A stretch of 64,000 bases of DNA from a virus. The notes beneath the pieces are model-generated. The model was not told the DNA's origin. It saw nothing but the letters and a program-made list of their open reading frames with translations, and made no database searches. Location of the stretch: positions 96,001 to 160,000 of the IMG/VR virus record IMGVR_UViG_3300045988_171958; one strand, written 5' to 3'. A program made the position numbers and the translations under genes. Below are positions 6,591 through 57,980 of this stretch, one piece after another. Every line of letters starts with the position of its first letter. The first letter of the stretch is position 1.

Positions 6591-6712
6591 ATATATGAAA
6601 TAGATGAACCACATTCATTACATTTTACTATATAAGGGATATGTGCTCTTTTATTGATAGAATATTCTGTCAAATCTATTTCATTACCGCAATTGTTACA
6701 TTTAATCTTCAT
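6569..6712 (-). CDS. small zinc-ribbon protein (47 aa), below track threshold
   Basis: Manual translation MKIKCNNCGNEIDLTEYSINKRAHIPYIVKCNECGSSISYIPNKDGY (CxxC...CxxC). Its start overlaps the NDK stop by 11 nt. Confidence 0.5.
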   Translation of the reverse strand: MKIKCNNCGNEIDLTEYSINKRAHIPYIVKCNECGSSISYIPNKDGY

Positions 6713-7142
6713 CTTTGTCTAGTTCATTATCTATTTTGAAACAGATTTCTGCTTCTCTTTCAACATTTTCTTCAGAATCAGAACTATGCATACAGTTCTT
6801 CATATCATCTTTACCATATTTGTCTCTTACTTCATCTTTTACTTTCTTCAAGTCTTTTATAGGATCTTTACAATCTTTGTAAAGTTTGTAAGCAATACAG
6901 TTACCTGAACTCATATAATGGCAAAGATCATCATAAAAATCTTCCTTTTCATGCACTTTATAAAGGTCCCTTGCTTCATCCAAGTTCATCTTTATAGTCT
7001 TATAGTTAGTGATGTCCCAACCAGCATTTTCTAACATATCTTCAAAATCATCTTGAACATCTAAGAATTCTGGTTTGAGAATTGCGAAGCCATTGAATTT
7101 CTTCTGCATGGCTTCACAAATATAGTTGGTTAAGCTTTTCAT
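6702..7142 (-). CDS. ndk: nucleoside diphosphate kinase with N-terminal MKSLTNYICE leader
   Basis: AILKPEF, YKVHEKEDFYDDLCHYMSSGNCIAY and the active-site block NCMHSSDSEEN (NxxHGSDS). Confidence 0.75.
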   Translation of the reverse strand: MKSLTNYICEAMQKKFNGFAILKPEFLDVQDDFEDMLENAGWDITNYKTIKMNLDEARDLYKVHEKEDFYDDLCHYMSSGNCIAYKLYKDCKDPIKDLKKVKDEVRDKYGKDDMKNCMHSSDSEENVEREAEICFKIDNELDKDED

Positions 7143-7146
7143 TTAC

Positions 7147-7662
7147 TTAGAATTCTTTAAGATACTTTTTAAGATTTTTAATATCTTCCTTTCTGAATTT
7201 TTCATTTGGTACAAGATCGAATCCCCAAGAACATGTACCTTTATCTAATATTTCTTTAATGTCTTTACCGTCCTTTTCACTGTCAATAAGATCTTTATTG
7301 TAAAGAACATAATATTTTACAGATTTGCCACGATACTTACTGTTTGTCTTTATAATAGCAATACCTGTCTTATCAAACTTCATACCATTGTAAAATTCTG
7401 TCTCACTATCAGTATTACCCTTGACTTTAATGCTACTCTTAAGGACTTTAGCAATTTCTACCATGCCACGGATTTGAATACGATATCCATCAGTATCATA
7501 AGCAATACATAATGCCTTTTCACCTGGGTTGAAATTAAAGTCTTCTGATTGGCGTAATCCATCCTTATGTAAGAACATTCCATTTTTATTAGAACCATTA
7601 GTTTGGAATTGTTCTGTTATGTTATTTATGCTTTCATAAATGTAATTAGTTAAACTTTTCAT
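7147..7662 (-). CDS. hypothetical protein with MKSLTNYIYE leader
   Basis: 171 aa. Its start overlaps the stop of the 1160-aa gene by 4 nt. The leader matches the decapeptide family. Confidence 0.7.
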   Translation of the reverse strand: MKSLTNYIYESINNITEQFQTNGSNKNGMFLHKDGLRQSEDFNFNPGEKALCIAYDTDGYRIQIRGMVEIAKVLKSSIKVKGNTDSETEFYNGMKFDKTGIAIIKTNSKYRGKSVKYYVLYNKDLIDSEKDGKDIKEILDKGTCSWGFDLVPNEKFRKEDIKNLKKYLKEF

Positions 7663-11382: not shown

Positions 11383-12255
11383 TTAAATAGTATTAGTATT
11401 TATGAAGTAGTCAGCAGAATGGTTCTTCTGAATCCATTCATCTATCTTCTGCATTTCTTCATTAGCCATGTCTCTCCATATACTGTAATTTAAAGTAACT
11501 CCACCTGGTAGTTTGAATTCAAATGTACCAAGAATAGTAGCCATAGAACGTAAGCCAAGACAAACACAATATCTGAAGAAATAGTAGTTCTTGTACAAGT
11601 CTTGTATCTTAAGTCTCTTATATACATTGAGCATCAAATCAGAATGTCCAATAGCTCCTAGTACAACAAGGTCATTACTATAAGTATTGTAATTATATGT
11701 TACTGGAGTATTGAATATGTAGTCAAAAGTATCAAGTTCATATAATGCCGCTGTAACATCAGTCAATGTATATCCACCACCTGATCCATATACATCAGAT
11801 AGGCTACCACCAACTCCAGATGCTATAGCTGAATTGTTCAGTATCATTCTTTCCAAAGAAAAGTCACCCATAACACCATAAGACCAACTATCTGTTGCTT
11901 TGTACAATCCATTTACAGAAAGGATTTGTGGTGGCAACTTAGCAATCATGTTAGCGCCACATTTTGTAAACTCCTTGAATGGAAGACAATACCAACGTTC
12001 TTCTATAGCTCCATCGCAATTTTCCCAGAAATATTGTGCTGCTTGCAATATCAATGGTGGAATAGCTGATGGTTGCATTGGTAAATTTATTGCACATGTC
12101 TGGGTTAATTCTTGAATGATTCTTTGTATGAACTGATAATCTATTTGATCCTCTATTTTTTGTTTTCTCTTATTATATTCTTCTATAGAAATTTCTTTCT
12201 GTATTAAAGGATTATTGCCTGGATTTATGTTTTGTATGCAACTCATTGAATTCAA
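11383..12255 (-). CDS. hypothetical structural protein
   Basis: 290-aa ORF with a 1-nt gap to the next gene. Confidence 0.7.
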   Translation of the reverse strand: MNSMSCIQNINPGNNPLIQKEISIEEYNKRKQKIEDQIDYQFIQRIIQELTQTCAINLPMQPSAIPPLILQAAQYFWENCDGAIEERWYCLPFKEFTKCGANMIAKLPPQILSVNGLYKATDSWSYGVMGDFSLERMILNNSAIASGVGGSLSDVYGSGGGYTLTDVTAALYELDTFDYIFNTPVTYNYNTYSNDLVVLGAIGHSDLMLNVYKRLKIQDLYKNYYFFRYCVCLGLRSMATILGTFEFKLPGGVTLNYSIWRDMANEEMQKIDEWIQKNHSADYFINTNTI

Positions 12256-13244
12256 TCATTTAACTTATTTAAAAATTGAGTTAATAATTCATCTATAAAA
12301 TCTTTTCCTTCTTGTAATGACCAAACTTCTTTAAAATTTAAATTATTTCTTTTAGCTGTTTCTCTTTTATTTACATCATATATAGTCCATGTCTTTATTG
12401 CATTTAAATAATATTTATGGCCATTTTTATATTTTGATTTCCATGATTCTAATTGATTTTTATCATCTACATTATTTTTGTTGTAAGGATGTTTACCATG
12501 GGTCCAATTTCCATTTAATTCAATAAAATAATTCAATTCTGGAATATAAAAATCACATTGCCATGGATATTTCTCTTTATCTCTATATTGTCTTTTTACT
12601 GTTGGAAATTTAGATTTTATATACAAGAAAAGATCTTCTTCCGGTTTAGAAGAATTAAATGAATTATGTTCTTTTAAATTTAAATTTCTATTATATTGAA
12701 CCTTTTCAGAAGACATTATATCTGACATTTTTGTTTTCCAAATAGGAGATTTGGATATCCAATCAACATTATATTTTTCAATACATGTCTTTTTATATTT
12801 CGCTTTTATAACTTCTGATTTGAATGGGTGATCTACTCCATATTTTCTTAAAGAAGTTTCTATGGCAATTTTTCTTTTTTCTTTATCTTTTAATGGTGTT
12901 TCATATCCATATCTATTTAAACAAGTTTGCTTATATTTTTCTAATTTTTCTTTTGCATTATATGAACATTCATGGCAACAATATATAGTAAATGGTTTTT
13001 TAAATTTATTTGTAAAGACTACTTTATTTCCACAAGTTGGACATATTGGTCTTATTTCTATTTTAAGTCTCATTCTTAAAATTGTTTCTTGCCTAGATAA
13101 AGAATCATTATATCTATTATCCAAATAATCAGATATATTAGGATATTTACTTAATTTTCTAATTTTCCAATAATCATTTTTTCCATCTTTATTAGAAATA
13201 ACTTTCAATATTATATTATCGTGATTTGTTTTAATATTTTCCAT
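12252..13244 (-). CDS. homing-endonuclease-like protein (Zn ribbon + Vsr-like PD-(D/E)XK nuclease)
   Basis: RPICPTCGNK...CCHEC, repeats RYGYETP/KYGVDHP/KYNVDW, and nuclease core CDFYIPELNYFIELNGNWTHGKH. Paralog of 17363..18319. Very AT-rich. Confidence 0.7.
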   Translation of the reverse strand: MENIKTNHDNIILKVISNKDGKNDYWKIRKLSKYPNISDYLDNRYNDSLSRQETILRMRLKIEIRPICPTCGNKVVFTNKFKKPFTIYCCHECSYNAKEKLEKYKQTCLNRYGYETPLKDKEKRKIAIETSLRKYGVDHPFKSEVIKAKYKKTCIEKYNVDWISKSPIWKTKMSDIMSSEKVQYNRNLNLKEHNSFNSSKPEEDLFLYIKSKFPTVKRQYRDKEKYPWQCDFYIPELNYFIELNGNWTHGKHPYNKNNVDDKNQLESWKSKYKNGHKYYLNAIKTWTIYDVNKRETAKRNNLNFKEVWSLQEGKDFIDELLTQFLNKLND

Positions 13245-17362: not shown

Positions 17363-18319
17363 ATGGAATATGATAAAATTATTACAAATTTATTAATAAG
17401 TAATAAAAATAAAATTAGAAATGGAATATTAAGAAAAATAAAATTAAAATATCCTAATATATTATCTTATTTAATAAAAAGATATGATGATTCGGAATCA
17501 ATATCTGAAACTATAAGAAGAATTCAATATAATATAGAAAAAAGACCAGTTTGTAAAGTATGTGGTAAAAAGGTAAACTATATTTGTAATGGGAATTATA
17601 GAAATGTTTGTTCTTTTAAATGTGGAGAAATATATTGTAGAGAAAGAAGGTTTAAAACTATGATAGATAAATATGGTACACCATATCCTTATGAAAATAA
17701 AGATATAATGCGAAAAATGAGGGAAAATTTAAAAAATAAATATGGTGTTGATAATCCTTCTAAATTAGAAAATGTAAAAGAAAAGAAGAAAAATACATTT
17801 ATAAAACATTATGGTGTAGATAATTATTTCAAAACTGAAAAATCAGTTAAAAGATCCCATACAAAAGAATGTATAAATAAACAATATTTGACAAAAATAA
17901 AAAATAATTCATTTGGAAAATCTAAACAGGAAGATACAATATATGAAAAAATAAAAGAAGTATATCCAGATGTTATAAGACAATATAAAGATAAAATAAG
18001 ATATCCATATAATTGTGATTTTTATATTCCTGAGATAGATTTATTTATAGAATACCAGGGTTATTATACTCATGGTAAACATCCATTTAATATTAATAAT
18101 GAAAATGATAAAGAATTAATGGAGAAATATATAAATAAATATGGTAATAACAATCAACAATATACTATATGGTGTGTAAAAGATGTAGAAAAAAGGAATA
18201 CTGCAAAAAATAATAATTTAAATTATATTGAATTATTTAATTTTAAAAAATTAGATGAATTAATTGAAATAATAAAAAATAAAAACTATATTAAAAATAT
18301 TAGTAATTTAGTAATTTAA
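17363..18319 (+). CDS. homing-endonuclease-like protein (Zn ribbon + Vsr-like PD-(D/E)XK nuclease)
   Basis: RPVCKVCGKK...CSFKC, repeats KYGTPYP/KYGVDNP/HYGVDNY, and core CDFYIPEIDLFIEYQGYYTHGKH. Paralog of 12252..13244. Extremely AT-rich. Confidence 0.7.
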   Translation: MEYDKIITNLLISNKNKIRNGILRKIKLKYPNILSYLIKRYDDSESISETIRRIQYNIEKRPVCKVCGKKVNYICNGNYRNVCSFKCGEIYCRERRFKTMIDKYGTPYPYENKDIMRKMRENLKNKYGVDNPSKLENVKEKKKNTFIKHYGVDNYFKTEKSVKRSHTKECINKQYLTKIKNNSFGKSKQEDTIYEKIKEVYPDVIRQYKDKIRYPYNCDFYIPEIDLFIEYQGYYTHGKHPFNINNENDKELMEKYINKYGNNNQQYTIWCVKDVEKRNTAKNNNLNYIELFNFKKLDELIEIIKNKNYIKNISNLVI

Positions 18320-28055: not shown

Positions 28056-28676
28056 TTATATGCATGTCCAAATCTCTCTTATCTTATTGAATTCATTATA
28101 AGGAAGTGTCCAATATCCGTTTCTTCCATAGCTTCTACCCCAACTGTTTCTGATAATGAAACCATTCTTATCATATCCAACAACTGCAACACAATGACTT
28201 CCTTCTAACTCTGCTCCATTCCAAAAGTCATTTCTTGAACTATCATATACAGGTAATGCTATCAATACTGGCCCATTGCATAATATTGCTTGCTTCAATA
28301 TTTGTTCACTTCCTATCATTGCAAAGTCATGTATCTTAATAGTTCCAACATTTGATTTGATACCGTGTGTTCTTGCTAATGACAATGCTTCTTTGATAGA
28401 CATACCATTATCATGACCCTTATTTGATCTTGCATTATATATTTGCTTCAAATCAATATTGTTGTCTTTCTTTGAAGTCTTCAACTTCATATCAGTAATC
28501 CAATTCAAAAAGCATGCAAGAGCATGGGTGACACACATGTTTGTAGAACCTTGATCTGTTATTGGGCTAAGATAATTTACAAAGCTATATTCATCAGGAA
28601 TCTTATTAGTTAAATTCTTAGTGATCTTCTTATCATGAGCATCAATTTTCGATGCATTGCAACCTAACATTCTCAT
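28056..28676 (-). CDS. papain-family (C1) cysteine peptidase
   Basis: DQGSTNMCVTHAL (Gln...Cys), HCVAVVGYD (His), RNSWGRSYGRNGYW (Asn-Ser-Trp). Lone minus-strand gene in a plus-strand block. Confidence 0.8.
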   Translation of the reverse strand: MRMLGCNASKIDAHDKKITKNLTNKIPDEYSFVNYLSPITDQGSTNMCVTHALACFLNWITDMKLKTSKKDNNIDLKQIYNARSNKGHDNGMSIKEALSLARTHGIKSNVGTIKIHDFAMIGSEQILKQAILCNGPVLIALPVYDSSRNDFWNGAELEGSHCVAVVGYDKNGFIIRNSWGRSYGRNGYWTLPYNEFNKIREIWTCI

Positions 28677-29269: not shown

Positions 29270-29833
29270 ATGAGTTATACATATAAATACGTACATTACG
29301 CAGTAACAGTAGATAATGTAATCTTCAATTTGAAGGATCCAAATAATCCTAAGGTGTTGCTCATCACTCGTAAGAATGAACCATTCAAAGGAAAGTTAGC
29401 ACTTCCTGGTGGATTCTTAGATCCAGATGACAGATCTGCAATGTCCGCTGCTATCCGTGAACTTAAGGAAGAGACAAACTTAAGCTTGAGTTATATGTTT
29501 CAAGTTTGTGCTCTTACTAAAGAAGGAAGAGATCCACGAGAGAGATGCATTTCTATTGTATATGCAGATACTGTTCATGATGATTTTGAAGGTCTGATTA
29601 AGGCGCAAGATGATGCATCAACAGTACAATGGGTATCATTAGTAGGTCTAAGAAAAGATGATTTAGCATTTGATCATGCTACTGCTATCTGGAAATCTAT
29701 CCAAGAATTGTTTGATGATGAGTCAAATTGCATTTCATTGTTTGATATCAAAGAAGAACAGTATCAACACACAAAGATGCTTCTTGATACAATAAAATTC
29801 AATTTAGGCCAAACTTTTTTACCAATATTTTGA
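29270..29833 (+). CDS. Nudix hydrolase-like protein
   Basis: LPGGFLDPDDRSAMSAAIRELKEETNL (Nudix box with Asp for the first Glu and one extra residue). The track start at 29249 is GTG; ATG is at 29270. Confidence 0.7.
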   Translation: MSYTYKYVHYAVTVDNVIFNLKDPNNPKVLLITRKNEPFKGKLALPGGFLDPDDRSAMSAAIRELKEETNLSLSYMFQVCALTKEGRDPRERCISIVYADTVHDDFEGLIKAQDDASTVQWVSLVGLRKDDLAFDHATAIWKSIQELFDDESNCISLFDIKEEQYQHTKMLLDTIKFNLGQTFLPIF

Positions 29834-31696: not shown

Positions 31697-33628
31697 TTAT
31701 TTAAATAAATCTTGTTCTTCAAAAGCAAGTGCTGTCTTGGCAGTCTTTTCTTTCTTTTTCTTTTCTTCTATCTTTGGTTTCTTCTTATATACAAAGTCAA
31801 CTATTCTTTGATCTATATGTACACAATTTTCTAAAGGAATTTCTTCTATACTATAAGACCATTTCTGTTCTTTGTACATTTTGATACGTTGCAAACCTTG
31901 TAGATATATCTTATTGCTAGCTATCTTAGGATCAAATTGATCTGTAACATCATATAGCTCATAAACATCTTTCATATCTGACAAACCAAGTCCTCTACCA
32001 ATAGACTGCATATTGATTACTTGGGATTTGAATGATTCAAATAAGAAGCCATGACAAAGATTAGAAAGTGTAATACCTGTGCTCATGATAGAATATCCTG
32101 CGATCAGTATCACATTATTTTTGTTTTTCATCACTTCTTTCACAATCTTTCTGTCTTTAGAACCACCTATTACATATAGAACTTCTCTATCTGGGTATGC
32201 TTCTTTCACTCTTTCATAAACATATTTTATATATTCACGATGTTGTGCAAGAATTAATGTATTATTAGGACAATCCTTAAGCTTTGCTATCAACCAATCT
32301 ATTCTTCTTTCTTTGAAATGTACAGTCATCATCTCAACATGCAATGCATTAGTCTTAGTAGATTCCTGTATTACCATCTGAAGAAAATGCTTATACTGCA
32401 AATCTTGATACTGCTGCCACTGTTCATCAGACATCTTACTTGTGTTTGGTTTCTTTTCTCCATAGATTTTCCATTTAGCATCAAGAATACCCTGTGGTAA
32501 TTTTTTCTTATAAGCAATTAAGAATTTTGGATCTGACAATGGTACATGATCCATTTTCTTTGGATTCTTCTTATTAGGTACTTCTTCAAATACCGACAAA
32601 CAATATTCTGCACATTTAATCCAATCTTTGATAGATTGCCATTCATTCATATACTGCAATCTGCACTGTGTTATCTTAACGTCAGAAATATAACCACCAT
32701 CTTGTAAGTCTTTTGGATTCAATTCTTGTATCTTAGGACCTAGCAATGCATTAATACAATGTCTTTCTATAGTAAAATCTTTTGGCAAAGTACCTGTCAT
32801 TCCAAATGCTATCTTCACATTTGACATAAATGGCTGACTTATGATATCCTTAATAGACTTAGCAGTAGCACGATGTGTTTCATCAACAAACACCATATCA
32901 TATCCACATCGATCTATTCCATTACCATCAAAGAAATGTGGATTGTAACGTTTTGAATTCTTATCTAAGAAATTCACAAGTGTTTGGAATGTTGCAATTG
33001 TCAAATCAGATGATTCAACTAACTTACCACCAGACCAAAGGCATTCACTATTGAAATAATCACCATATTCTTTGAAGTCAGAATATCCTTGCTTAACTAA
33101 ATCAATACTTGGTACAACCATCAATATTCTGCGCACACCAAGATATTCTCTTGCATATCGAAAAACTATGTAACTGAGCATAGTCTTACCAGATCTTGTA
33201 GCAAATACCGATGTTGATCGCTTCCATTGCAATATGTTATATGCTCCTTCATACTGGTATGGCCTTGGTGTATACTTCAAATTCCAACTATCAACTATTT
33301 TCTTGAATTCTTCAAATGAATGTGGGAGATTTGACTTGAACTTGGTTTTATCTAAACCATCATATTCCCAATTCTTTTCTTTCAAGAAATTATATATAGT
33401 CTGCCATAGTCCAATAGAACAATACCACACCTTTGTACCTGACTTCTGTACATATTCATATAAGAAATCTTGAGTAAATGGTATACCAGTAAAGCTTTTT
33501 AAATAACATACTGGGTCAATCAAATTCATTTTACTCTTCAATTCATTTATGACCTTTTCATCTTCTTTAGTATCTACTTTCAAGAACAGATATTGGGGTG
33601 ATTTGTTGCTAAACAAAAAATGTATCAT
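31697..33628 (-). CDS. SF2 DExH helicase (UvsW-like)
   Basis: ATRSGKT (motif I), VDETHR (motif II), MTGT (III), QSIGRGLG (VI). 643 aa. Confidence 0.8.
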   Translation of the reverse strand: MIHFLFSNKSPQYLFLKVDTKEDEKVINELKSKMNLIDPVCYLKSFTGIPFTQDFLYEYVQKSGTKVWYCSIGLWQTIYNFLKEKNWEYDGLDKTKFKSNLPHSFEEFKKIVDSWNLKYTPRPYQYEGAYNILQWKRSTSVFATRSGKTMLSYIVFRYAREYLGVRRILMVVPSIDLVKQGYSDFKEYGDYFNSECLWSGGKLVESSDLTIATFQTLVNFLDKNSKRYNPHFFDGNGIDRCGYDMVFVDETHRATAKSIKDIISQPFMSNVKIAFGMTGTLPKDFTIERHCINALLGPKIQELNPKDLQDGGYISDVKITQCRLQYMNEWQSIKDWIKCAEYCLSVFEEVPNKKNPKKMDHVPLSDPKFLIAYKKKLPQGILDAKWKIYGEKKPNTSKMSDEQWQQYQDLQYKHFLQMVIQESTKTNALHVEMMTVHFKERRIDWLIAKLKDCPNNTLILAQHREYIKYVYERVKEAYPDREVLYVIGGSKDRKIVKEVMKNKNNVILIAGYSIMSTGITLSNLCHGFLFESFKSQVINMQSIGRGLGLSDMKDVYELYDVTDQFDPKIASNKIYLQGLQRIKMYKEQKWSYSIEEIPLENCVHIDQRIVDFVYKKKPKIEEKKKKEKTAKTALAFEEQDLFK

Positions 33629-34799: not shown

Positions 34800-35345
34800 T
34801 TATAGCAATATTACTGCACATAGTGCGATAATCATATATAATATAGTTTGTTTCAAAACCCGTTTCAAAGCATAAGTCATTTCTTTTCTGCTCACAACAT
34901 CAATTACAATAAGATAATTGTCTGCATTCAATGGACCCACATGCTTTATGTCGACATTAATATAGTCATAAAGCTTATTTATCTTAAACAAATTGTCAAT
35001 CAAATTGAATTGTCTGTATACCCAATTCTTCACATATTCATTACTGTTTGTGTTGTCCCCATCAATTTCTATGATTGTATTGTTGAAGTCAATCTTTCCA
35101 TCAATGTCAATATAAGGGTTTATTACACCATACAATCTTCCAATCCAATCTTTCTTTATAGATATCCTAAGATACTGCTTCAGAACTGTAAGAAATTCTT
35201 TACTATATAGAGTATCTGATATGTATGACATGTCAGTAATGTATCTGTATATAGACTGTACTAACATTACTAATCTCCAAGTCAGAGTATTTGATCCAAT
35301 TTTCTTCAATATCCAACTTATGCCATGTGATTTCTTGTAAATCAT
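34800..35345 (-). CDS. hypothetical protein with C-terminal TM helix
   Basis: 181 aa with C-terminal TILYMIIALCAVILL. Confidence 0.6.
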   Translation of the reverse strand: MIYKKSHGISWILKKIGSNTLTWRLVMLVQSIYRYITDMSYISDTLYSKEFLTVLKQYLRISIKKDWIGRLYGVINPYIDIDGKIDFNNTIIEIDGDNTNSNEYVKNWVYRQFNLIDNLFKINKLYDYINVDIKHVGPLNADNYLIVIDVVSRKEMTYALKRVLKQTILYMIIALCAVILL

Positions 35346-35412
35346 GATAAATTTCTCTATTTTTATCTAATAGATGAATTAGGCAATTAAAAAATAAAAT
35401 TTTTCATTTTTA

Positions 35413-35448
35413 TTTGAAATTTTTCCTAATTGTTCTATATTCATCTCG
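35413..35448 (+). promoter_or_regulatory. class-I consensus promoter of the sigma-factor gene
   Basis: tttgaaatttttcctaattgttctatatt with +20 geometry and G at +35. The -10 box is half of a 10-bp inverted repeat gttctatatt(N14)aatatagaac (35432..35465). Confidence 0.7.
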
Positions 35449-35535
35449 TTAATAAAATATAGAACATAATCTTGATTAATTTCAAGTTATGTTTGAAAAA
35501 ATTTAGAAATTCAAACTTAAAAAGTTCAAGAAAAT

Positions 35536-36735
35536 ATGAAGAAATTATCAGAATTTGTTGTAGAAGCTAAGTCACTTGATGTACAGAATGATACTTTGGA
35601 TTTTATTCCATCTGCTAAGCTTAAGACATATCTTACCGCTGCAGACAAGTTCATTTCTGTTGAGGCAAAGGAAATCATCAATTGGTTGATTGTAAACAAT
35701 GCTACATATATGAAGGAGATTGGTTCTCTTCAAAATTTCTATGGTAAGGGTAAGCCAAAAGATCCTAAGATGCAAGAGTTGTACAAGTGGATTGGAACAC
35801 TTGCTAAAGCACATCGTCTTCTTGAGGTACCAGTATTCCAGACTGAAGAGCAATTCAGTGCAATTATCAAAAATGAGATTTCACCAGATGAGATATTGCT
35901 TGATTTGAAGACAAAGAAAGGTCGTGATGCTGTGGCTAAGAAATATACTCCATTGGTTTGGAAGATTGCTCGTGGATTCAATGGAAAGTCTAGCTTCTCT
36001 CTTGATGATTTGTTTGCTTTTGGTATGGAAGGTCTTACCATTGCAATGAATCAATATGGTAAATCTTCTGAAGAGACCGCTAAGAAACGTGGTGGAAAGA
36101 ATGCTGAAGCAGAAGAGATGGCTGGAGAATTGAAAGATGAAATGAAGAAGCGTAAGGCATTCACTTTCTTGAGTTATGCTAGCTATTTGATTCGTATTGT
36201 AATCCTTGAAAATATCAAGAATGCTTCACACTTAGTACGTATTCCGGTTTCTGTTCAGAATAGGGAACGTAAAGATACAGGTAGAAATACAAAACAGACT
36301 TCAGTATCTGGTGAGTCACCTATCGGTGGTGGAGATGAAGGTAAGGGAATCTTTGATAAAGTTGATTCTAAAGAAGATGCAGATGCTTCACTCGACCAGC
36401 AAGATATTGCTAAGCTTTGGAAGATGATTGTTAAGATGCTTGAGAAGAAATTTACTGAAAAGCAGCTTGATGTATTCTATAGTATGAATGGATTGTTTGG
36501 TCATGAAAAGCTTAAAGCAAAGCAGATTATGGCTAAGTATGGTATGAAGAATCCATCAGAAGTTACTAATTCTAATTTCAAAGTTCTTCAGTATGTTAAG
36601 AATACTCCAGAGTTGAAGAAAGCATTTGCTGAGTTGTATTCTCTCTATAAAGAATGTTTGAATGATGAAGATCAGAGAAATGCCGACCCATCAGTATTTC
36701 GTATAAATGACAATGATACTGCATATCGTGAGTAA
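35536..36735 (+). CDS. sigma-70-family RNA polymerase sigma factor with MKKLSEFVVE leader
   Basis: Region 2.1-2.2 LVWKIARGF...DLFAFGMEGLTIAMNQY. Region 2.3-2.4 FTFLSYASYLIRIVILENIKN. HLVRIPVSV. Region 4 FTEKQLDVFYSMNGL...KAKQIMAKYGMK..SEVTNSNFKVLQYVKN. Confidence 0.8.
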   Translation: MKKLSEFVVEAKSLDVQNDTLDFIPSAKLKTYLTAADKFISVEAKEIINWLIVNNATYMKEIGSLQNFYGKGKPKDPKMQELYKWIGTLAKAHRLLEVPVFQTEEQFSAIIKNEISPDEILLDLKTKKGRDAVAKKYTPLVWKIARGFNGKSSFSLDDLFAFGMEGLTIAMNQYGKSSEETAKKRGGKNAEAEEMAGELKDEMKKRKAFTFLSYASYLIRIVILENIKNASHLVRIPVSVQNRERKDTGRNTKQTSVSGESPIGGGDEGKGIFDKVDSKEDADASLDQQDIAKLWKMIVKMLEKKFTEKQLDVFYSMNGLFGHEKLKAKQIMAKYGMKNPSEVTNSNFKVLQYVKNTPELKKAFAELYSLYKECLNDEDQRNADPSVFRINDNDTAYRE

Positions 36736-36736
36736 G

Positions 36737-37117
36737 ATGAAAAGCCTATCTGAATATATGAATGCATTGCTTGAAAGCAGTATTGAACGATATTCAATCA
36801 AGATTACTCTCAAGCAATTCATTGACAAATATGTGGAATTATCTAAGTTGTCAAGAACCAAAGCAATATCAGAATTAGTATCTAATCTGAATATGTACAG
36901 TGATGGCGGACCTAATAAAGAAGATTGGATTACTTCAAGTCAAAGCAAAGAAATTTCATTTGATGCTTATACAGAAACAATAAGTGGAAAAGAATATCTG
37001 TATATAGAAATTCATGATTCTAGTTATGATACTATGAAGGTTGCATTCAACATTAAAAAAGTTGACTTTGCAGAACAGTTGTATGATTGGTTCAAAAATA
37101 CTGGTAGAAAGCAATGA
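36737..37117 (+). CDS. hypothetical protein with MKSLSEYMNALLE leader
   Basis: ATG at 36737 lies 1 nt after the sigma stop. The track start at 36707 overlaps the sigma gene. Confidence 0.65.
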   Translation: MKSLSEYMNALLESSIERYSIKITLKQFIDKYVELSKLSRTKAISELVSNLNMYSDGGPNKEDWITSSQSKEISFDAYTETISGKEYLYIEIHDSSYDTMKVAFNIKKVDFAEQLYDWFKNTGRKQ

Positions 37118-37422
37118 TTAATCTTAAGAGCTATGTAGTCATGAAAGAAGAATTGGATGGTGATAACATTCAATGGAAATTCAACAATTGGTCTAAAGGA
37201 ATAGAATCATCTGTATTGGACGCATTTATGTTAGATGCGTCCTATCAAAAAGATATAGATAGTTTTAAGAAACTGGTAGATGACAGTGGTATCAACTTCA
37301 ATGCATTGACTGATGTAATGAATGATGATGCAAAAGGATTGCCAGACAACTATGACAATATCTATGTTCTTAAGAAAATAATAGACACTATAAATATATT
37401 AAATAAAGGAAAAAATGATTAG
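37114..37422 (+). CDS. hypothetical protein (weak leader variant MINLKSYVV)
   Basis: 102-aa ORF with 4-nt overlaps on both sides. Confidence 0.6.
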   Translation: MINLKSYVVMKEELDGDNIQWKFNNWSKGIESSVLDAFMLDASYQKDIDSFKKLVDDSGINFNALTDVMNDDAKGLPDNYDNIYVLKKIIDTINILNKGKND

Positions 37423-38110
37423 TATTTCAGAATACTTGAACGAAAATCTTGATGAATTCGTTTTTGAGTTGAAAAGCCAAACATATTTGAATGCTGCTAA
37501 GAAAGCAAAGAAACTTGGTGATCCACGAGCAGAAAAGTTCTTGCAAGCATTTAAAGACAATATTGATAAAGAATTGATGGCTACAGAAGGTCCAGATGAT
37601 GAAGAAAAGAAATTCAACATCTATTATAATGCTGATAAGAAATCTATTATTAGACTTAAGTCTCTTGATAAGAGAGAAAATGGAAATGGACCATTATTGG
37701 AACAAACTAACAGAGGAACTTATTTCGACATACGAAATGATGACATTGAATTTATTGCGAATGTTTATGTTGCATCCAATAAAGATGGAGATAGACAAAT
37801 CTTCTTACGTCAATCTATCATAACTCAAGATAAATGGAAATATGTATCAAAAGAATTCAATAGAGTTGCTGAAAAAATAAATGATTCAGAATCAAAGAAG
37901 CCATTTACTTTTGTTAAGATGTTTACAAATACTGGTACTGTGGAATTTTTCTATATTATAGATACAGATAAGTTAATTCCCATATTCTTAAATCATGGTA
38001 AAGGCAATAAGTATGAAGATGATGAGTGCTTAGATAATTATTCAGAAAATGATAAAACTGCTATCAATGCTATCTGTAAAGCAATGAATCAAAATCATAA
38101 GGATATATAA
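37415..38110 (+). CDS. hypothetical protein with MISISEYLNE leader
   Basis: 231-aa ORF. Confidence 0.7.
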   Translation: MISISEYLNENLDEFVFELKSQTYLNAAKKAKKLGDPRAEKFLQAFKDNIDKELMATEGPDDEEKKFNIYYNADKKSIIRLKSLDKRENGNGPLLEQTNRGTYFDIRNDDIEFIANVYVASNKDGDRQIFLRQSIITQDKWKYVSKEFNRVAEKINDSESKKPFTFVKMFTNTGTVEFFYIIDTDKLIPIFLNHGKGNKYEDDECLDNYSENDKTAINAICKAMNQNHKDI

Positions 38111-38119
38111 ATATTGTTT

Positions 38120-38731
38120 ATGAAACAATTAGTAGAATATATGAAGGAGAGCTTGGCAACGAACTCTCCTTTTACATTAAATGAAGATAGAGATCAGACC
38201 ATCCGGTTGAATGACTTTGAAGCTAGTTGGAAGGTAAAAGATCCAGAAAACAGAAAAGGTATCTTTGTAATAGAAGTACCAGAAGACTATACTGATGATG
38301 ATATCAATCAATATATATCTGATTTGCTTCTTGAAAGCATGCCATCTGATGATGATTTAGCTAAAGAATATTTTGGTGTCAATGCTGATAATATCATAGA
38401 TGCTAGATTTGAATTTGAAAAGAAAGAAGATGCAAAAGATGAGTTGCATTGTACTTTCGACTTTGACAAATCATTAGATGACAACTATAAAGGAGAACAA
38501 GATAACCTGAAGAAGTATGCATTGGAAAATCTCAGATTCATTGTAGATTGGTCAGAGTTTGATGTTGCAAATACATCAGATGATGGATTGCTATACGACT
38601 TATGGGATATCTTCAAGAGAACAAAGTCAAGCAATATTGTAAAATATATGGATGATAAGATAAAGTTGGAAATTGAAGAAAAAGATATGGTTTTTGATAA
38701 CAATAAGAGTGAACTTATTAAAGACAAATAA
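38120..38731 (+). CDS. acidic hypothetical protein with MKQLVEYMKE leader
   Basis: ATG at 38120. The track start at 38114 is TTG. Confidence 0.7.
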   Translation: MKQLVEYMKESLATNSPFTLNEDRDQTIRLNDFEASWKVKDPENRKGIFVIEVPEDYTDDDINQYISDLLLESMPSDDDLAKEYFGVNADNIIDARFEFEKKEDAKDELHCTFDFDKSLDDNYKGEQDNLKKYALENLRFIVDWSEFDVANTSDDGLLYDLWDIFKRTKSSNIVKYMDDKIKLEIEEKDMVFDNNKSELIKDK

Positions 38732-38766: not shown

Positions 38767-39546
<780 letters not shown>

Positions 39547-39584: not shown

Positions 39585-40319
39585 ATGGAATCATTAACAA
39601 ATTTTATAAATGAAGCTCTAAGCAAATCTGAATTCATGGATATCATCGATAAATATGATGATGCTAGAAAGTTGGATAATTTGGATAGTTATTATGATGA
39701 TTTAATAATTGGGTTTAGCCGTAGAGAGGAAATAAATAATGTTGTTGTAAAGTCAATTGGTAAAGGCCCATACTATGTTGTTGGTATGGATAATTGGGCT
39801 GACTTATTTGATAAAAAGGGTATCACCAATATTCTTAAAAAAGCAGGTATTACTAGATTACCACATTGGGTAAAAAATGTAAATGATAGAAGTGAAGAAA
39901 CAACATACGGTTTTGTCGATACTACAAAAATAAATGATTATTATCATACTACTGGAGATAATATGGCATGGAAAAAACATGAAATTAAAAATGCCCTTGA
40001 AACAAATAAGAAGTTAAAAGAACTTGGTCTAACTAAGGAATTGGATGATAAGCTTAAGCAAATGACAAGTGCTTTTGATTTTAAACCAATTAAGCTTGAA
40101 AGAGATGTAAGAGCTAGTAGAGCAGCAGCTGCTAGAAAAGATGTATGGGGTCATTATTATGGTGGCGGTACAGGTAAACTTGATATTGTACCAAATATCT
40201 TATTAATTAATGGAAAATTAATTAAGATTCTTACTATGGGTGTAGAAGGTAATGCAGGAAGTGCAGGTATATATACTTTGATTATTCCGGCAAGTGAAAT
40301 TGAGAATATCAAAGATTAA
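39585..40319 (+). CDS. hypothetical protein with MESLTNFINE leader
   Basis: 244-aa ORF. Confidence 0.7.
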   Translation: MESLTNFINEALSKSEFMDIIDKYDDARKLDNLDSYYDDLIIGFSRREEINNVVVKSIGKGPYYVVGMDNWADLFDKKGITNILKKAGITRLPHWVKNVNDRSEETTYGFVDTTKINDYYHTTGDNMAWKKHEIKNALETNKKLKELGLTKELDDKLKQMTSAFDFKPIKLERDVRASRAAAARKDVWGHYYGGGTGKLDIVPNILLINGKLIKILTMGVEGNAGSAGIYTLIIPASEIENIKD

Positions 40320-56672: not shown

Positions 56673-57980
56673 ATGGAATATAATATAATTGGTAAGTACA
56701 ATAAGGATTGCAAGATTTTTGCAAAGACAGTTGAAGAAGATGCATTGAAGATGGTTTACAGTATTTGTGACTGTCCTGCATTTAAGAATCAGAAGATAAG
56801 AGTGATGTGTGATGTACACTGTGGACAGGGGATAGTGATAGGATTTTCTTCAACTATTGATAAGGAGAATCCAATGGTCAATCCAAGCCATGTAGGTGTG
56901 GATATTGGTTGTCAGGTAACTTGTATCAAGATGTCAAAGCCATGTCCAGAGGAATCTTATGCATTGCTTGAACATCGATGGAAGAAGGATATCCCTACTG
57001 GATTCACTATCTATGATAAGAAGATTGCTGATGAGAAGATGTTCTACAAGATGTGCAATACTGCTATTGACAGAGCTGTTGCTACAACAGATTTTGTGAA
57101 CAATGTAAATGTAAATGAAAAGTACATTTCTGATATGCTGAAGCGAATTGGTATGGATGAAGGTACTTTCTGGAAGTCATTAGGTACTACTGGTGGTGGC
57201 AATCATTTCTTGTCTTATGATACTGATGATGAAGGTAACGGATATATCATGATACATTGTGGTTCTCGCAATTTTGGTTTGAAGGTAGCAAAGTACTGGG
57301 TGAATGTTGCAAACAAGCCTTATCATGTTGACAGTTCAGAATGGGCAAAGCATATTGAAAAGATAAAGGACACATATCCTAAGTCAGAGTGGAATGAGCG
57401 AATCAAGAATGCAAAGGAAGACTTTGTATCATCTGTTCCTACTGGTTATCTGAATGGTGAGAATCTGATTGGTTATCTTACTGATATGGTAATTGCACAG
57501 ACTTATGCTAAGTACAATCATTTGCTTATTTCAGATAAGATGACTGAAATCTATACTAAGATTGTCAAAGGTGCTACAACAGCTCGTGTCATCAATACTA
57601 TGCATAATTATATTGACTTTGATGATATGATTATCCGTAAAGGTTCTGTCAATGCTGCTTATGGACGTGAACTTGTGATTCCTATCAACATGCGAGATGG
57701 TGTATTGATTTGTGTAGGTAAAGGAAATGCTGAATGGAATTGTACTGCTCCTCATGGTGCCGGTCGATTGATGTCACGTTCTGCTGCTAAGGCAAATCTT
57801 TCTATGGATGAATTTACTGAAGAGATGAAGGACGTTTGTTCAACTTCTGTCAACAAGTCAACATTGGATGAGTCTCCTATGGCATACAAGCCTATGGATG
57901 AGATTATTGAACAGATTGAACCAACAGTTCAGATTCTGAAGAGAATAAAAGAGCGAATAAATATTAAAGCAGCTGAATAA
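56673..57980 (+). CDS. rtcB: RtcB-family RNA 3'-phosphate/5'-OH ligase
   Basis: CDVHCGQG, GTTGGGNHFLS, IHCGSRNFGLKVA, APHGAGR. 435 aa. Confidence 0.85.
   Translation: MEYNIIGKYNKDCKIFAKTVEEDALKMVYSICDCPAFKNQKIRVMCDVHCGQGIVIGFSSTIDKENPMVNPSHVGVDIGCQVTCIKMSKPCPEESYALLEHRWKKDIPTGFTIYDKKIADEKMFYKMCNTAIDRAVATTDFVNNVNVNEKYISDMLKRIGMDEGTFWKSLGTTGGGNHFLSYDTDDEGNGYIMIHCGSRNFGLKVAKYWVNVANKPYHVDSSEWAKHIEKIKDTYPKSEWNERIKNAKEDFVSSVPTGYLNGENLIGYLTDMVIAQTYAKYNHLLISDKMTEIYTKIVKGATTARVINTMHNYIDFDDMIIRKGSVNAAYGRELVIPINMRDGVLICVGKGNAEWNCTAPHGAGRLMSRSAAKANLSMDEFTEEMKDVCSTSVNKSTLDESPMAYKPMDEIIEQIEPTVQILKRIKERINIKAAE

What the first reader, a model, noticed from the sequence alone, without database searches (positions are those of the whole stretch)
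35536..36735. Sigma-70-family factor carrying the putative capsid-targeting leader: a possible virion-delivered sigma
The ORF has clear sigma-70 blocks:
- Region 2: LVWKIARGF..DLFAFGMEGLTIAMNQY and FTFLSYASYLIRIVILENIKN
- HLVRIPVSV
- A region-4 HTH: QLDVFYSMNGL...KAKQIMAKYGMK..SEVTNSNFKVLQYVKN
- A unique N-terminal extension of about 130 aa and a charged insertion of about 40 aa within region 2.

It begins with MKKLSEFVVE|A, the leader shared with the putative packaged proteins.

Phages are known to inject RNAPs (N4, phiKZ-like) or RNAP modifiers (T4 Alt). To my knowledge an injected sigma factor has not been described. Its presence alongside the very uniform promoter family in this window suggests a self-contained early transcription switch.
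Basis: partly seen in the sequence, partly recalled or inferred. Interest (0 to 1): 0.75.

Follow-up and report, generated by a model that had tools for sequence, protein, structure and literature searches.

The report
Phage sigma factor with capsid-targeting leader
A huge human-gut phage encodes a real sigma factor whose first ten residues look like the tag phage T4 uses to load proteins into its head, so it may be injected with the DNA, though no experiment has tested this.

Summary
The ORF (35536..36735, +, 399 aa) is real. It belongs to a metagenomic family with more than 200 protein clusters.

**Sigma identity: well supported.** PHROG 351 matches at E=4e-11. A family profile hits only sigma factors in the PDB (best 4e-8). 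The AlphaFold model matches only SigA, RpoD and RpoS.

**Leader: real and not chance.** The leader is MKKLSEFVVE|A. The same 10-residue pattern starts 43 of 354 ORFs in this phage group, where 0.35 are expected. Carriers include a true NDK. The pattern mirrors the T4 IpII/IpIII capsid-targeting sequence MKTYQEFIAE|A at the four positions that T4 mutagenesis mapped as functional.

**Supporting context:**
- IMG/VR contigs 91-95% identical in DNA to the window carry a T4 gp21-type prohead protease and a gp23-type capsid protein.
- A candidate late-promoter element, TATTTTTA, precedes the protease, capsid and sheath genes in nearly every lineage fetched. It also precedes this sigma gene in all eight lineages.
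- A second, leaderless sigma has only an early-type promoter.

**Not shown:** packaging, cleavage and injection are all inferred. The gene also has an early-type promoter. These promoters could be served by the primary sigma of a likely Bacteroidota host.

**Verdict:** a new variant of known kinds, interesting, and directly testable.

The parts
35536..36735 (+). Sigma-70-family factor gene (399 aa, stop included)
   Evidence: ORF. PHROG 351 E=4e-11. Family profile against the PDB hits sigma factors only. Foldseek PDB and BFVD hits are sigma factors.
35536..35565 (+). Ten-codon leader MKKLSEFVVE. The predicted prohead-protease cut is after Glu10, between 35565 and 35566, leaving a mature protein that starts AKSLDVQ (about 44 kDa).
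   Evidence: Matches T4 IpII/IpIII MKTYQEFIAE|A. Leader census. pLDDT 37 for residues 1-11. E10 and K12 are nearly invariant in the family. Cleavage itself is inferred.
35566..35910 (+). Family-specific N-terminal helical domain (residues 11-125), function unknown
   Evidence: pLDDT 80-92. Conserved across the family. No Pfam match.
35911..36255 (+). Sigma region 2 (residues 126-240), ending in HLVRIPVSV. It contains a charged, variable insertion at residues 176-208 (36061-36159).
   Evidence: Profile alignment to RpoS 94-175. NCBIfam hits. Insertion: low pLDDT and variable length.
36256..36387 (+). Disordered linker resembling region 3.2 (residues 241-284). No region 3.0/3.1 domain is detected.
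   Evidence: pLDDT below 50 for residues 255-284. Aligned to RpoS 225 onward and RpoD 455-566.
36388..36660 (+). Sigma region 4 helix-turn-helix domain (residues 285-375)
   Evidence: Profile stretch 241-357 aligns to RpoD 455-566, and 256-349 to RpoS 225-312. Four helices in the model.
35414..35441 (+). Early-type promoter of the uniform family (TTGAAA-N16-TATATT; TTTG at 35413-35416), ending 95 nt upstream of the ATG
   Evidence: There are 7 exact copies of TTTGAAATTT-N10-TTCTATATT in the window. Function is inferred.
35456..35485 (-). Divergent early-type promoter facing the minus-strand gene 34800..35345. Its -10 box forms an inverted repeat with the sigma promoter's -10 box.
35358..35365 (+). 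TATTTTTA, the candidate late-promoter element, 178 nt upstream of the sigma ATG
   Evidence: The same forward element lies upstream of sigma in all 8 lineages. It also lies upstream of the protease, capsid and sheath genes in 26 of the 28 structural-gene upstream regions listed. Promoter function is inferred.
36737..37117 (+). Downstream operon gene with a leader-like N-terminus, MKSLSEYMNALLES (variant lacking Glu10)
   Evidence: Start codon is ambiguous: 36707, 36737 or 36758.
37415..38110 (+). Leader-bearing gene (MISISEYLNE|N), 231 aa, unknown function
38120..38731 (+). Leader-bearing gene (MKQLVEYMKE|S), 203 aa. In all distant relatives a leader-bearing protein of 173-175 aa follows the sigma gene (homology to this gene not tested).
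   Evidence: No PHROG or Pfam match.
39585..40319 (+). Leader-bearing gene (MESLTNFINE|A), 244 aa, with TATTTTTA 31 nt upstream
6702..7142 (-). Nucleoside diphosphate kinase carrying the leader MKSLTNYICE|A
   Evidence: Pfam NDK E=3.7e-20, 72.6 bits; the domain starts at residue 18.
7147..7662 (-). Leader-bearing gene (MKSLTNYIYE|S), 171 aa
31443..31688 (-). DUF3175 protein carrying the leader MKKLSEFVNE|K
   Evidence: Pfam DUF3175 E=9.5e-7.

Best explanation
**What it is (shown).** The gene encodes a two-domain sigma-70-family factor. It has region 2 and region 4, joined by a linker resembling region 3.2, and it has a family-specific N-terminal domain. The phage is a roughly 294-kb human-gut phage, distantly T4-related. 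It belongs to the group that contains the Lak megaphages, the Tenacibaculum jumbo phages and Sphingomonas phage PAU. Its host is probably a member of Bacteroidota.

The first ten residues, MKKLSEFVVE, are a modular leader of the same kind as the T4 capsid-targeting sequence (MKTYQEFIAE).

**How it probably works (inferred).**
1. The sigma is made late as well as early, together with the head proteins.
2. The leader docks it onto the scaffolding core of the prohead.
3. The T4 gp21-type prohead protease removes the leader after Glu10.
4. The mature 44-kDa sigma stays inside the filled head, along with many other proteins that carry the leader.
5. It is ejected with the DNA into the next cell.
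6. There it binds host core RNA polymerase and directs it to phage promoters before any phage protein has been synthesised.

**What is shown and what is not.** The sigma identity, the leader, its modularity, the protease and capsid genes, and the promoter-element distribution are shown. Docking, cleavage, encapsidation, ejection and promoter specificity are inferred.
For: **Sigma identity:**

**The leader is not chance.**
- 43 of 354 distinct ORFs start with the pattern; 0.35 are expected.
- In the window alone, 7 of the 10 pattern matches fall exactly at residue 2.
- Positions the pattern did not select are also conserved: Lys2 in 37 of 43, and Ser or Ala at residue 11 in 29 of 43.

**Likeness to T4.**
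- IpII and IpIII both start MKTYQEFIAEA.
- T4 mutagenesis places targeting at residues 4 and 7, and processing at residues 8 and 10 (PMC9026906). Those are the four conserved leader positions here.
- Fusing the T4 capsid-targeting sequence to foreign proteins is enough for packaging, processing and delivery.

**Machinery is present.**
- IMG/VR contigs carry both the sigma (96-98% aa identity, 91-95% DNA identity to the window) and a head module.
- The head module holds a 517-aa protein with Peptidase_S77 at E=7e-11, above the Pfam cut-off.
- It also holds a Gp23 capsid protein at E=4e-30.
- The protease carries a scaffold-like tail with several near-identical repeats containing W-[IV]-V-E. That is the same aromatic-aliphatic-x-Glu signature as the leader.

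**Modularity.**
- The leader sits on NDK, DUF3175 and many unrelated small proteins.
- Sigma relatives of about 25-30% identity also begin with a similar M-K/R-x-hydrophobic N-terminus, often ending in Glu.
- Two short sigmas that lack the N-terminal domain also begin with a leader-like motif.
- In the model the leader is disordered.

**Timing.**
- TATTTTTA lies upstream of the protease, capsid and sheath genes in 26 of 28 cases.
- The intergenic background is 1.3e-3 per nt.
- The same element lies upstream of sigma in 8 of 8 lineages.
- In three of those lineages no early-type promoter lies between it and the gene.
- The leaderless paralogous sigma has an early-type promoter and no TATTTTTA.
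Against: - There is no virion proteome, N-terminal sequence or infection data for this uncultured phage.
- In the window lineage the sigma gene also sits behind an early-type promoter (35414-35441). It can therefore be made de novo, like any ordinary phage sigma.
- The uniform promoters partly fit the Bacteroidota primary-sigma consensus (TTTG at -33, TAnnTT at -7). An injected sigma is therefore not needed to start transcription.
- More than 10% of the genes carry the leader, including a housekeeping-type NDK. That is an unusually large and odd cargo list for a capsid, so the leader could serve another purpose.
- The likeness to T4 rests on about 10 residues.
- Tenacibaculum phage PTm1, an isolated relative, shows no such leader family in its first 50 kb.
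- TATTTTTA is an AT-rich 8-mer in AT-rich intergenic DNA. Its promoter role is inferred from distribution only.
Confidence: 0.45

Rival explanations
1. This is an ordinary phage-encoded sigma. It is synthesised de novo early in infection from its early-type promoter and switches host RNA polymerase to middle or late phage promoters, possibly the TATTTTTA class, with positive feedback on its own gene. The leader is unrelated to delivery. It would be a general N-terminal module of this phage group with some other role, such as stability, translation efficiency, or assembly into an intracellular complex.
For: - An early-type promoter ends 95 nt upstream of the ATG.
- Jumbo phages of this group are known to encode RpoD-like sigma factors that are presumed to redirect host polymerase (PMC7824862; PMC13282480).
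- Tandem early and late elements would fit an autoregulated late sigma.
- The leader is on far more proteins than a capsid cargo list would be expected to hold, including an NDK.
Against: - It leaves unexplained the leader's position-by-position match to the T4 capsid-targeting sequence and to T4 gp21 cleavage sites.
- It leaves unexplained the leader's co-occurrence with a gp21-type protease.
- Three lineages have only the late-type element upstream, which is awkward for a sigma that must act before late genes.
- A second, leaderless sigma with an early-type promoter is available for the conventional role.
- Codon-level divergence between leaders argues against an mRNA-level function.
Confidence: 0.35
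2. This is a pro-sigma. The leader keeps the factor inactive or sequestered until the prohead protease removes it, coupling a late transcription step to head assembly. The analogy is Bacillus pro-sigma-E and pro-sigma-K. The sigma is not injected.
For: - The leader ends in a predicted protease site.
- A gp21-type protease is present.
- A late-type element lies upstream of the gene.
- Established knowledge: pro-sigma-E and pro-sigma-K are activated by removal of N-terminal propeptides.
Against: - The same leader sits on NDK, DUF3175 and dozens of unrelated proteins, so it is not a sigma-specific regulatory device.
- T4 gp21 is held to act inside the assembled prohead (PMC9026906), so a substrate must already be encapsidated to be cut.
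- A 10-residue disordered leader, separated from region 2 by a 115-residue domain, is an unlikely inhibitor.
Confidence: 0.07
3. The shared N-terminus is a by-product of recombination or duplication of a DNA cassette (promoter plus 5' end), as with mobile regulatory cassettes in T4-type phages. It would have no function at the protein level.
For: Leader genes occur in tandem arrays that look like products of duplication and shuffling.
Against: - Upstream DNA is not shared, and most leader genes are internal to operons.
- Codons for the same residues differ between genes.
- Conservation is at amino-acid property level, at positions 2, 4, 7, 8, 10 and 11.
- The leader persists in the sigma family down to about 25-30% identity.
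Confidence: 0.03

Closest known systems
T4 internal proteins IPI/IPII/IPIII and their capsid-targeting sequence
   Same: - A 10-residue N-terminal leader: M-K-x-hydrophobic-x-E/N-aromatic-aliphatic-x-E, followed by Ala or Ser.
- The leader is shared by otherwise unrelated proteins that sit in variable loci.
- The phage has a gp21-family prohead protease and a gp23-type capsid.
- In T4 the leader alone is enough to package and deliver foreign proteins.
   Different: - The cargo here includes a sigma factor and an NDK rather than small anti-restriction proteins.
- The family is far larger: 7-10 genes in 64 kb, and arrays of more than ten consecutive leader-bearing genes in relatives.
- The residues differ (L/I instead of Y at position 4; no Q-E-F-I-A core).
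- Packaging has not been demonstrated.
Phage-encoded sigma-70-family factors of jumbo phages that lack their own RNA polymerase (group 2 of Iyer et al. 2021; PHROG 351)
   Same: A sigma region 2 plus region 4 protein in a phage with a UvsW-type helicase, a family B DNA polymerase, a gp23-type capsid and no detected RNA polymerase. It is presumed to redirect host core polymerase.
   Different: - These factors are described as synthesised after infection. None was reported as a virion component in the papers searched.
- This one has the leader, a unique 115-residue N-terminal domain and a late-type upstream element.
Virion-delivered transcription machinery: N4 virion RNA polymerase, phiKZ and AR9 virion polymerases, crAss-like phage virion polymerase, T4 Alt
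   Same: The proposed logic is the same: a protein packed in the head and ejected with the DNA takes control of transcription before any phage gene is expressed. T4 Alt is also trimmed by gp21.
   Different: - Those systems deliver a complete polymerase or a modifying enzyme.
- Here only the specificity subunit would be delivered, and the host core enzyme would be used.
- There is no homology to any of them.
Bacillus pro-sigma-E and pro-sigma-K
   Same: A sigma factor with a short N-terminal extension that ends at a protease site.
   Different: - The leader here is generic and shared with non-sigma proteins.
- The candidate protease is a capsid maturation enzyme.
- There is no sequence relationship.

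Membership tests
Sigma-70 family | Region 2 (core binding, -10 recognition) detectable by profile | tested here: met
   - Family profile against the PDB: RpoS at 4e-8 over positions 135-238. All 67 hits are sigma factors.
- NCBIfam RpoS, FliA and ECF hits.
- PHROG 351 at 4e-11.
- The single sequence is below the Pfam Sigma70_r2 cut-off (14.6 against 24 bits).
- Five family members carry PF04542 in the precomputed table.
Sigma-70 family | Region 4 helix-turn-helix (-35 recognition, flap binding) | tested here: met
   - Profile stretch 241-357 aligns to RpoD 455-566 (E=1e-5).
- Profile stretch 256-349 aligns to RpoS 225-312.
- The model shows a C-terminal four-helix bundle.
- Foldseek alignments to holoenzyme sigma chains span 280-425 columns.
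- Support is moderate, since each region-4 stretch is weak on its own.
Sigma-70 family | Region 3.0/3.1 domain (groups 1-3) | tested here: not met
   Between VRIPVSV and region 4 there is only one short helix and a 30-residue disordered segment. The architecture is therefore like group 4 (regions 2 and 4 only), although the sequence is closest to RpoS and SigA.
Sigma-70 family | Binds core RNA polymerase and confers promoter-specific initiation | not testable with these tools
   Needs in vitro transcription with host core enzyme.
T4-type capsid-targeting sequence / prohead-protease propeptide | A leader of about 10 residues with hydrophobic residue 4, aromatic residue 7, aliphatic residue 8 and Glu10, followed by a small residue | tested here: met
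   - MKKLSEFVVE|A against T4 MKTYQEFIAE|A.
- Family logo: I/L at 4, Y/F at 7, I at 8, E at 10, S/A at 11.
- The functional positions in T4 are 4, 7, 8 and 10.
T4-type capsid-targeting sequence / prohead-protease propeptide | Leader shared by otherwise unrelated proteins of the same phage | tested here: met
   Sigma, NDK, DUF3175 and at least 7 other window genes carry it. In total 43 of 354 ORFs across related loci do.
T4-type capsid-targeting sequence / prohead-protease propeptide | The phage encodes a gp21-family protease and a gp23-type capsid | tested here: met
   - Peptidase_S77 at 42.4 bits (cut-off 27), and Gp23 at 105.9 bits.
- Both are on contig IMGVR_UViG_3300045988_170375.
- Homologues 93-97% identical lie on contig _172530.
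- Both contigs also carry the sigma (96-98% aa identity) and are 91-95% identical in DNA to the window.
- Not checked in the exact source record, because the head region lies outside the window.
T4-type capsid-targeting sequence / prohead-protease propeptide | Expressed when proheads assemble (late) | tested here: inconclusive
   - The TATTTTTA element shared with the protease, capsid and sheath genes lies upstream of sigma in 8 of 8 lineages.
- Its promoter function is inferred.
- Only 5 of 40 leader-bearing genes have the element within 150 nt upstream, no more than other genes (33 of 262). Many lie in tightly packed arrays.
T4-type capsid-targeting sequence / prohead-protease propeptide | Protein present in virions, N-terminus trimmed after Glu10, ejected on infection | not testable with these tools
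   The phage is uncultured, and no proteomic data are accessible here.

The most novel reading that the evidence does not exclude
Huge phages of human-gut Bacteroidota load a sigma factor into the capsid through a T4-type leader, together with dozens of other leader-tagged proteins including an NDK. They inject it with the genome. Host core RNA polymerase is then reprogrammed from the first moment of infection by a virion-borne specificity subunit. That would be a third strategy, beside injecting a whole polymerase (N4, phiKZ, crAss-like phages) and injecting a polymerase modifier (T4 Alt).
Probability: 0.4. Interest if true: 0.85.

Novelty: new variant of a known kind. Interest (0 to 1): 0.66.

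Why it matters
**If the sigma is packaged.** It would be the first sigma factor found to be delivered by a virion. It would show that a phage can take over host transcription by carrying only the promoter-specificity subunit.

**The leader as a prediction tool.** The leader would become a sequence-only way to predict the whole ejected proteome of a large, uncultured group of gut phages. These include relatives of the Lak megaphages. The prediction points to dozens of candidate host-takeover and anti-defence proteins.

**Testability.**
- The leader is short and portable, and the T4 packaging assay already exists.
- A semi-tryptic peptide starting AKSLDVQ in virus-particle proteomes would settle the question.

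**If the sigma is not packaged.** The leader family, the protease-scaffold fusion and the two promoter classes are still useful annotation for an almost unannotated phage group.

Tried and rejected
**Searches that found nothing**
- Megablast and tblastn of the locus and the sigma against 50,697 phage records: no match. No isolated model phage carries this sigma.
- PHROG and Pfam scans of the leader-bearing small proteins and of the conserved neighbours of sigma: nothing apart from NDK and DUF3175.
- tblastn of T4 gp21, gp22, gp23, gp24 and gp68 against all fetched loci: nothing. The head module was reached instead by walking from a tail-sheath fragment and was recognised by profiles.
- Literature searches for an injected or virion-associated sigma: none found. 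This library lacks most subscription-journal papers, so this is not proof of absence.

**Leads that did not hold up**
- Tenacibaculum phage PTm1, an isolated relative: no leader family in its first 50 kb, so I dropped it as a proxy.
- The T4 late promoter TATAAATA: 18 copies in the window. My rough estimate from base composition is about 25 by chance, so it is not enriched and was rejected.
- Isoelectric point of leader-bearing proteins against the rest: no difference.
- DNA-cassette origin of the leader: rejected.
- Extending the window at its left end: the first gene is not on record.

**Not attempted**
- A PHROG scan of the remaining roughly 45 window genes for gp55 or gp33 homologues. I prepared it but did not run it.
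- Structure prediction of the N-terminal domain alone.
Full report
**1. The observation**

The ORF at 35536..36735 (+ strand, ATG start, 399 aa) exists. It is no chance ORF:
- A search of 5.8 billion proteins returned 206 clusters at E<=0.001. Their identity runs from 95% down to about 40% over the full length.
- An exhaustive search of cluster representatives added relatives down to about 25% identity.

The window is 100% identical to NCBI record CACVDK010000001.1, a 293,853-bp contig of assembly GCA_902729945.1. Near-identical contigs come from human-gut metagenomes.

**2. Is it a sigma factor?**

Single-sequence evidence is mixed:
- PHROG 351 'RNA polymerase sigma factor' matches at E=4e-11.
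- NCBIfam gives RpoS, FliA and ECF models at 3e-5 to 1e-3, far below their trusted cut-offs.
- Pfam Sigma70_r2 scores 14.6 bits against a 24-bit cut-off.

Family-level evidence is clear:
- A profile of 41 diverse members hit 67 distinct PDB sequences, and every one is a sigma factor.
- The best is RpoS at 4e-8. Aligned stretches cover region 2 (135-238) and regions 3.2-4 (241-357).
- An AlphaFold2 model (mean pLDDT 72) returned only SigA, RpoD and RpoS chains among its top 50 Foldseek PDB matches.
- In the viral structure library the best match is a 456-aa 'DNA-directed RNA polymerase subunit sigma' from a gut phage, at E=1e-10.

The architecture, in order:
- leader (residues 1-10);
- a well-folded helical domain specific to the family (11-125);
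- region 2 (126-240), carrying a disordered, charged, variable-length insertion at 176-208;
- a disordered linker resembling region 3.2;
- region 4 (285-375).

No region 3.0/3.1 domain is present. The '40-aa insertion' is nearer 30 aa.

**3. What kind of phage is this?**

- The helicase at 31697..33628 (-) is UvsW-like. Its matches are T4-type phages, including cyanophages, and the 462-kb uncultured phage LR756500.
- The window also holds the following:
  - a dNMP kinase;
  - a lysozyme-domain protein;
  - a weak T4 neck-protein match;
  - a family B DNA polymerase;
  - RtcB.
- The tail sheath of a relative matches several jumbo phages:
  - LR756500;
  - the Prevotella Lak megaphages;
  - Tenacibaculum phages PTm1 and pT24;
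  - Sphingomonas phage PAU;
  - Flavobacterium and Chryseobacterium phages.
- That grouping is 'group 2.2' of Iyer et al. (PMC7824862). Its members have a gp23-type capsid, a UvsW helicase, no RNA polymerase, and phage sigma factors including RpoD-like ones.
- Gene starts lack Shine-Dalgarno sequences and are A-rich, which is typical of Bacteroidota (PMC7366714).

A phage sigma in such a genome is therefore expected. The leader is the unusual part.

**4. The leader**

*Frequency.* In the window, the pattern ..[LIF].[ENQ][FY][ILVM].E occurs 10 times in 18,593 positions, and 7 of those are exactly at residue 2. Across the window and representative related loci:
- 43 of 354 distinct ORFs begin M-x-x-[LIFVM]-x-x-[FYW]-[ILVM]-x-E.
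- The internal background is 9.8e-4 per position, so 0.35 would be expected.
- Positions the pattern did not select are also conserved: Lys2 in 37 of 43, and Ser or Ala at residue 11 in 29 of 43.

*Protein-level signal.* Upstream DNA is not shared and codons differ between leaders, so the signal is in the protein.

*Modularity.*
- The leader precedes a bona fide NDK. Pfam gives E=3.7e-20, and the domain starts at residue 18.
- It precedes a DUF3175 protein.
- It precedes many unrelated small proteins.
- In three distant lineages the sigma gene is followed by arrays of more than ten consecutive leader-bearing genes.

*Within the sigma family.*
- E10 and K12 are nearly invariant.
- Relatives of 460-490 aa, about 25-30% identical, also begin with a similar M-K/R-x-hydrophobic N-terminus, often ending in Glu.
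- So do two short sigmas that lack the N-terminal domain.
- In the model the leader is disordered, with pLDDT 37.

**5. Comparison with T4**

I verified from the T4 record that IpII and IpIII both begin MKTYQEFIAEA. A review of the T4 work (PMC9026906) states three relevant things:
- The first 10 residues are sufficient for incorporation into the head.
- Targeting depends mainly on residues 4 and 7, and processing on residues 8 and 10.
- Fusions of the sequence to beta-galactosidase, GFP or a nuclease are packaged, trimmed and delivered into the next cell.

Positions 4, 7, 8 and 10 are exactly the conserved positions of the leader here. The Ser or Ala after Glu10 matches the T4 gp21 sites visible in gp22, gp24 and the internal proteins.

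**6. Is the protease there?**

The head genes lie outside the window. I reached them by walking from a tail-sheath fragment in a relative.
- Contig IMGVR_UViG_3300045988_170375 carries the sigma at 96% amino-acid identity.
- It is 91% identical in DNA to the window over the shared locus.
- Elsewhere on that contig lies a 517-aa protein whose N-terminus is Pfam Peptidase_S77, the T4 gp21 family. It scores 42.4 bits against a 27-bit cut-off, E=7e-11.
- Next to it are a 603-aa Gp23 capsid protein (E=4e-30), then the sheath and tube genes.
- Contig _172530 is 95% identical in DNA to the window. It carries the sigma at 98% amino-acid identity and the same head module.
- The protease has a long acidic C-terminal tail with several near-identical repeats such as QKWIVENYSPE.
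- It therefore looks like a protease-scaffold fusion studded with aromatic-aliphatic-x-Glu sites, the same signature as the leader.

**7. Timing**

Two promoter-like classes emerge.

*The uniform class.* Its sequence is TTTGAAATTT-N10-TTCTATATT.
- It has 7 exact copies in the window, plus variants.
- It precedes the DNA polymerase gene and other non-structural genes.
- One copy ends 95 nt upstream of the sigma ATG, and a divergent copy faces the other way.
- It can be read as TTGAAA-N16-TATATT.
- It can also be read as TTTG-N19-TAnnTT, which partly fits the Bacteroidota primary-sigma -33/-7 consensus.
- I cannot tell which sigma reads it.

*The second element, TATTTTTA.*
- It lies 43-124 nt upstream of the protease, capsid and sheath genes, and of some tube genes.
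- It is found in 26 of 28 upstream regions, across lineages as divergent as 48-75% protein identity.
- The intergenic background is 1.3e-3 per nt per strand.
- It is a candidate late promoter, reminiscent of the T4 late promoter TATAAATA. TATAAATA itself is not enriched here.

*TATTTTTA and the sigma genes.*
- The same forward element lies within 200 nt upstream of the sigma ATG in all eight lineages. In the window it is at 35358-35365.
- In three lineages no early-type promoter lies between it and the gene.
- A second sigma paralogue lies about 2.3 kb beyond the window end: 417 aa, PHROG 351 at 6e-25.
- It has no leader, has an early-type promoter and has no TATTTTTA.
- Late expression is what a packaged protein needs. 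It is odd for a factor that must act before late genes.
- An autoregulated late sigma would also fit the tandem arrangement.

**8. Weighing**

- *Shown:* a sigma-70-family factor; a non-random, modular, conserved 10-residue leader; its match to the T4 capsid-targeting sequence at the functionally mapped positions; a gp21-type protease and gp23-type capsid in the same phage species; and a structural-gene upstream element that also precedes this gene.
- *Inferred:* docking to the prohead core, cleavage after Glu10, encapsidation, ejection, activity in the next cell, and promoter specificity.
- *Against:*
  - the early-type promoter;
  - the possibility that the host sigma reads the early class;
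  - the very large and odd cargo list, which includes an NDK;
  - the shortness of the motif;
  - the absence of any proteomic data.

I put the full delivery model at about 0.45 and the conventional-sigma reading at about 0.35.

**9. Novelty**

Phage sigma factors and the T4 capsid-targeting sequence are both well known. Their combination is not described in any paper I could find. Reviews list only injected polymerases and modifiers. I file this as a new variant of known kinds.

It is testable by virion proteomics, by a leader swap in the T4 packaging system, and by in vitro transcription.

Noticed in passing
window 6702..7142 (-): A genuine nucleoside diphosphate kinase (Pfam NDK E=3.7e-20) carries the same leader, MKSLTNYICE|A, as an extension of about 14 residues ahead of the domain. 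It is an unexpected candidate for capsid cargo.
   Followed up: partly
L012:10001-20053, L013:9968-16770, L015:10001-16995 (IMG/VR relatives, sigma 40-41% identical): The sigma gene heads a same-strand array of more than ten small genes, most starting MK[DNS]I..[FY]I.E[SA]. This looks like a greatly expanded version of the T4 internal-protein locus.
   Followed up: partly
L017:12666-13919 (about 2.3 kb beyond the window's right end; ENA human-gut contig 99.96% identical to the window): A second sigma-70-family paralogue: 417 aa, GTG start, PHROG 351 E=6e-25. It has no leader, has an early-type promoter, and has no TATTTTTA upstream.
   Followed up: partly
window 1647, 3836, 29179, 35414, 40368, 41370, 49482, 50703, 55403, 60433, 62775 (+) and others: A very uniform promoter-like family, TTTGAAATTT-N10-TTCTATATT, often followed by CG about 5 nt downstream. 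It lies upstream of non-structural genes. It is compatible both with a classical -35/-10 geometry and, partly, with the Bacteroidota -33/-7 consensus.
   Followed up: partly
window 35358, and upstream of genes starting at 23036, 27404, 30687, 39585, 53702 (+) and 48194, 49426 (-); L022-L033 upstream of the protease, capsid and sheath genes: TATTTTTA is conserved upstream of structural genes in all lineages fetched. It is a candidate late-promoter element for this phage group.
   Followed up: yes
L024:4495-6048 (IMGVR_UViG_3300045988_170375): The prohead protease (Peptidase_S77) is fused to a long acidic tail. The tail holds a (DK)n run and several near-identical repeats such as QKWIVENYSPE. 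It appears to be a protease-scaffold fusion full of predicted self-cleavage sites.
   Followed up: partly
window 38120..38731 and 38767..39546 (+); L011, L014, L016 just downstream of sigma: An arrangement recurs across lineages: sigma, then a leader-bearing protein of about 175-200 aa, then a multi-pass membrane protein of about 257-323 aa. In the window the membrane protein has an EPEPEP repeat at 39279-39303. Neither protein matches any family. The leader-bearing protein might be a sigma partner.
   Followed up: no
L021 (LR756500.1 168221-211316): genes at 9524, 11786, 12571, 29176, 29587, 30358: The 462-kb uncultured phage has a related but longer leader, roughly MKYI..Y.[DN]F[IL].E, on proteins of about 130-490 aa. 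These sit beside its sheath and tube genes.
   Followed up: no
window 12252..13244 (-) and 17363..18319 (+); L003:4899-5981: Paralogous homing-endonuclease-like genes. The first matches PHROG 3339. The L003 insert carries Pfam DUF7487. That extra copy sits beside the sigma locus in one Logan contig but not in the window, so these elements appear to be mobile within the population.
   Followed up: no
window 29089, 41039, 41099, 56271, 56331: A GC-rich dispersed repeat containing TCACACAGGGA or its complement lies in intergenic regions of this 31% GC genome. Two pairs of copies lie 60 nt apart. I have no explanation for it.
   Followed up: no
window 28056..28676 (-), 29270..29833 (+), 56673..57980 (+): A papain-like Peptidase_C1, a NUDIX hydrolase and an RtcB RNA ligase are encoded in the window, according to the precomputed Pfam tables.
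   Followed up: no
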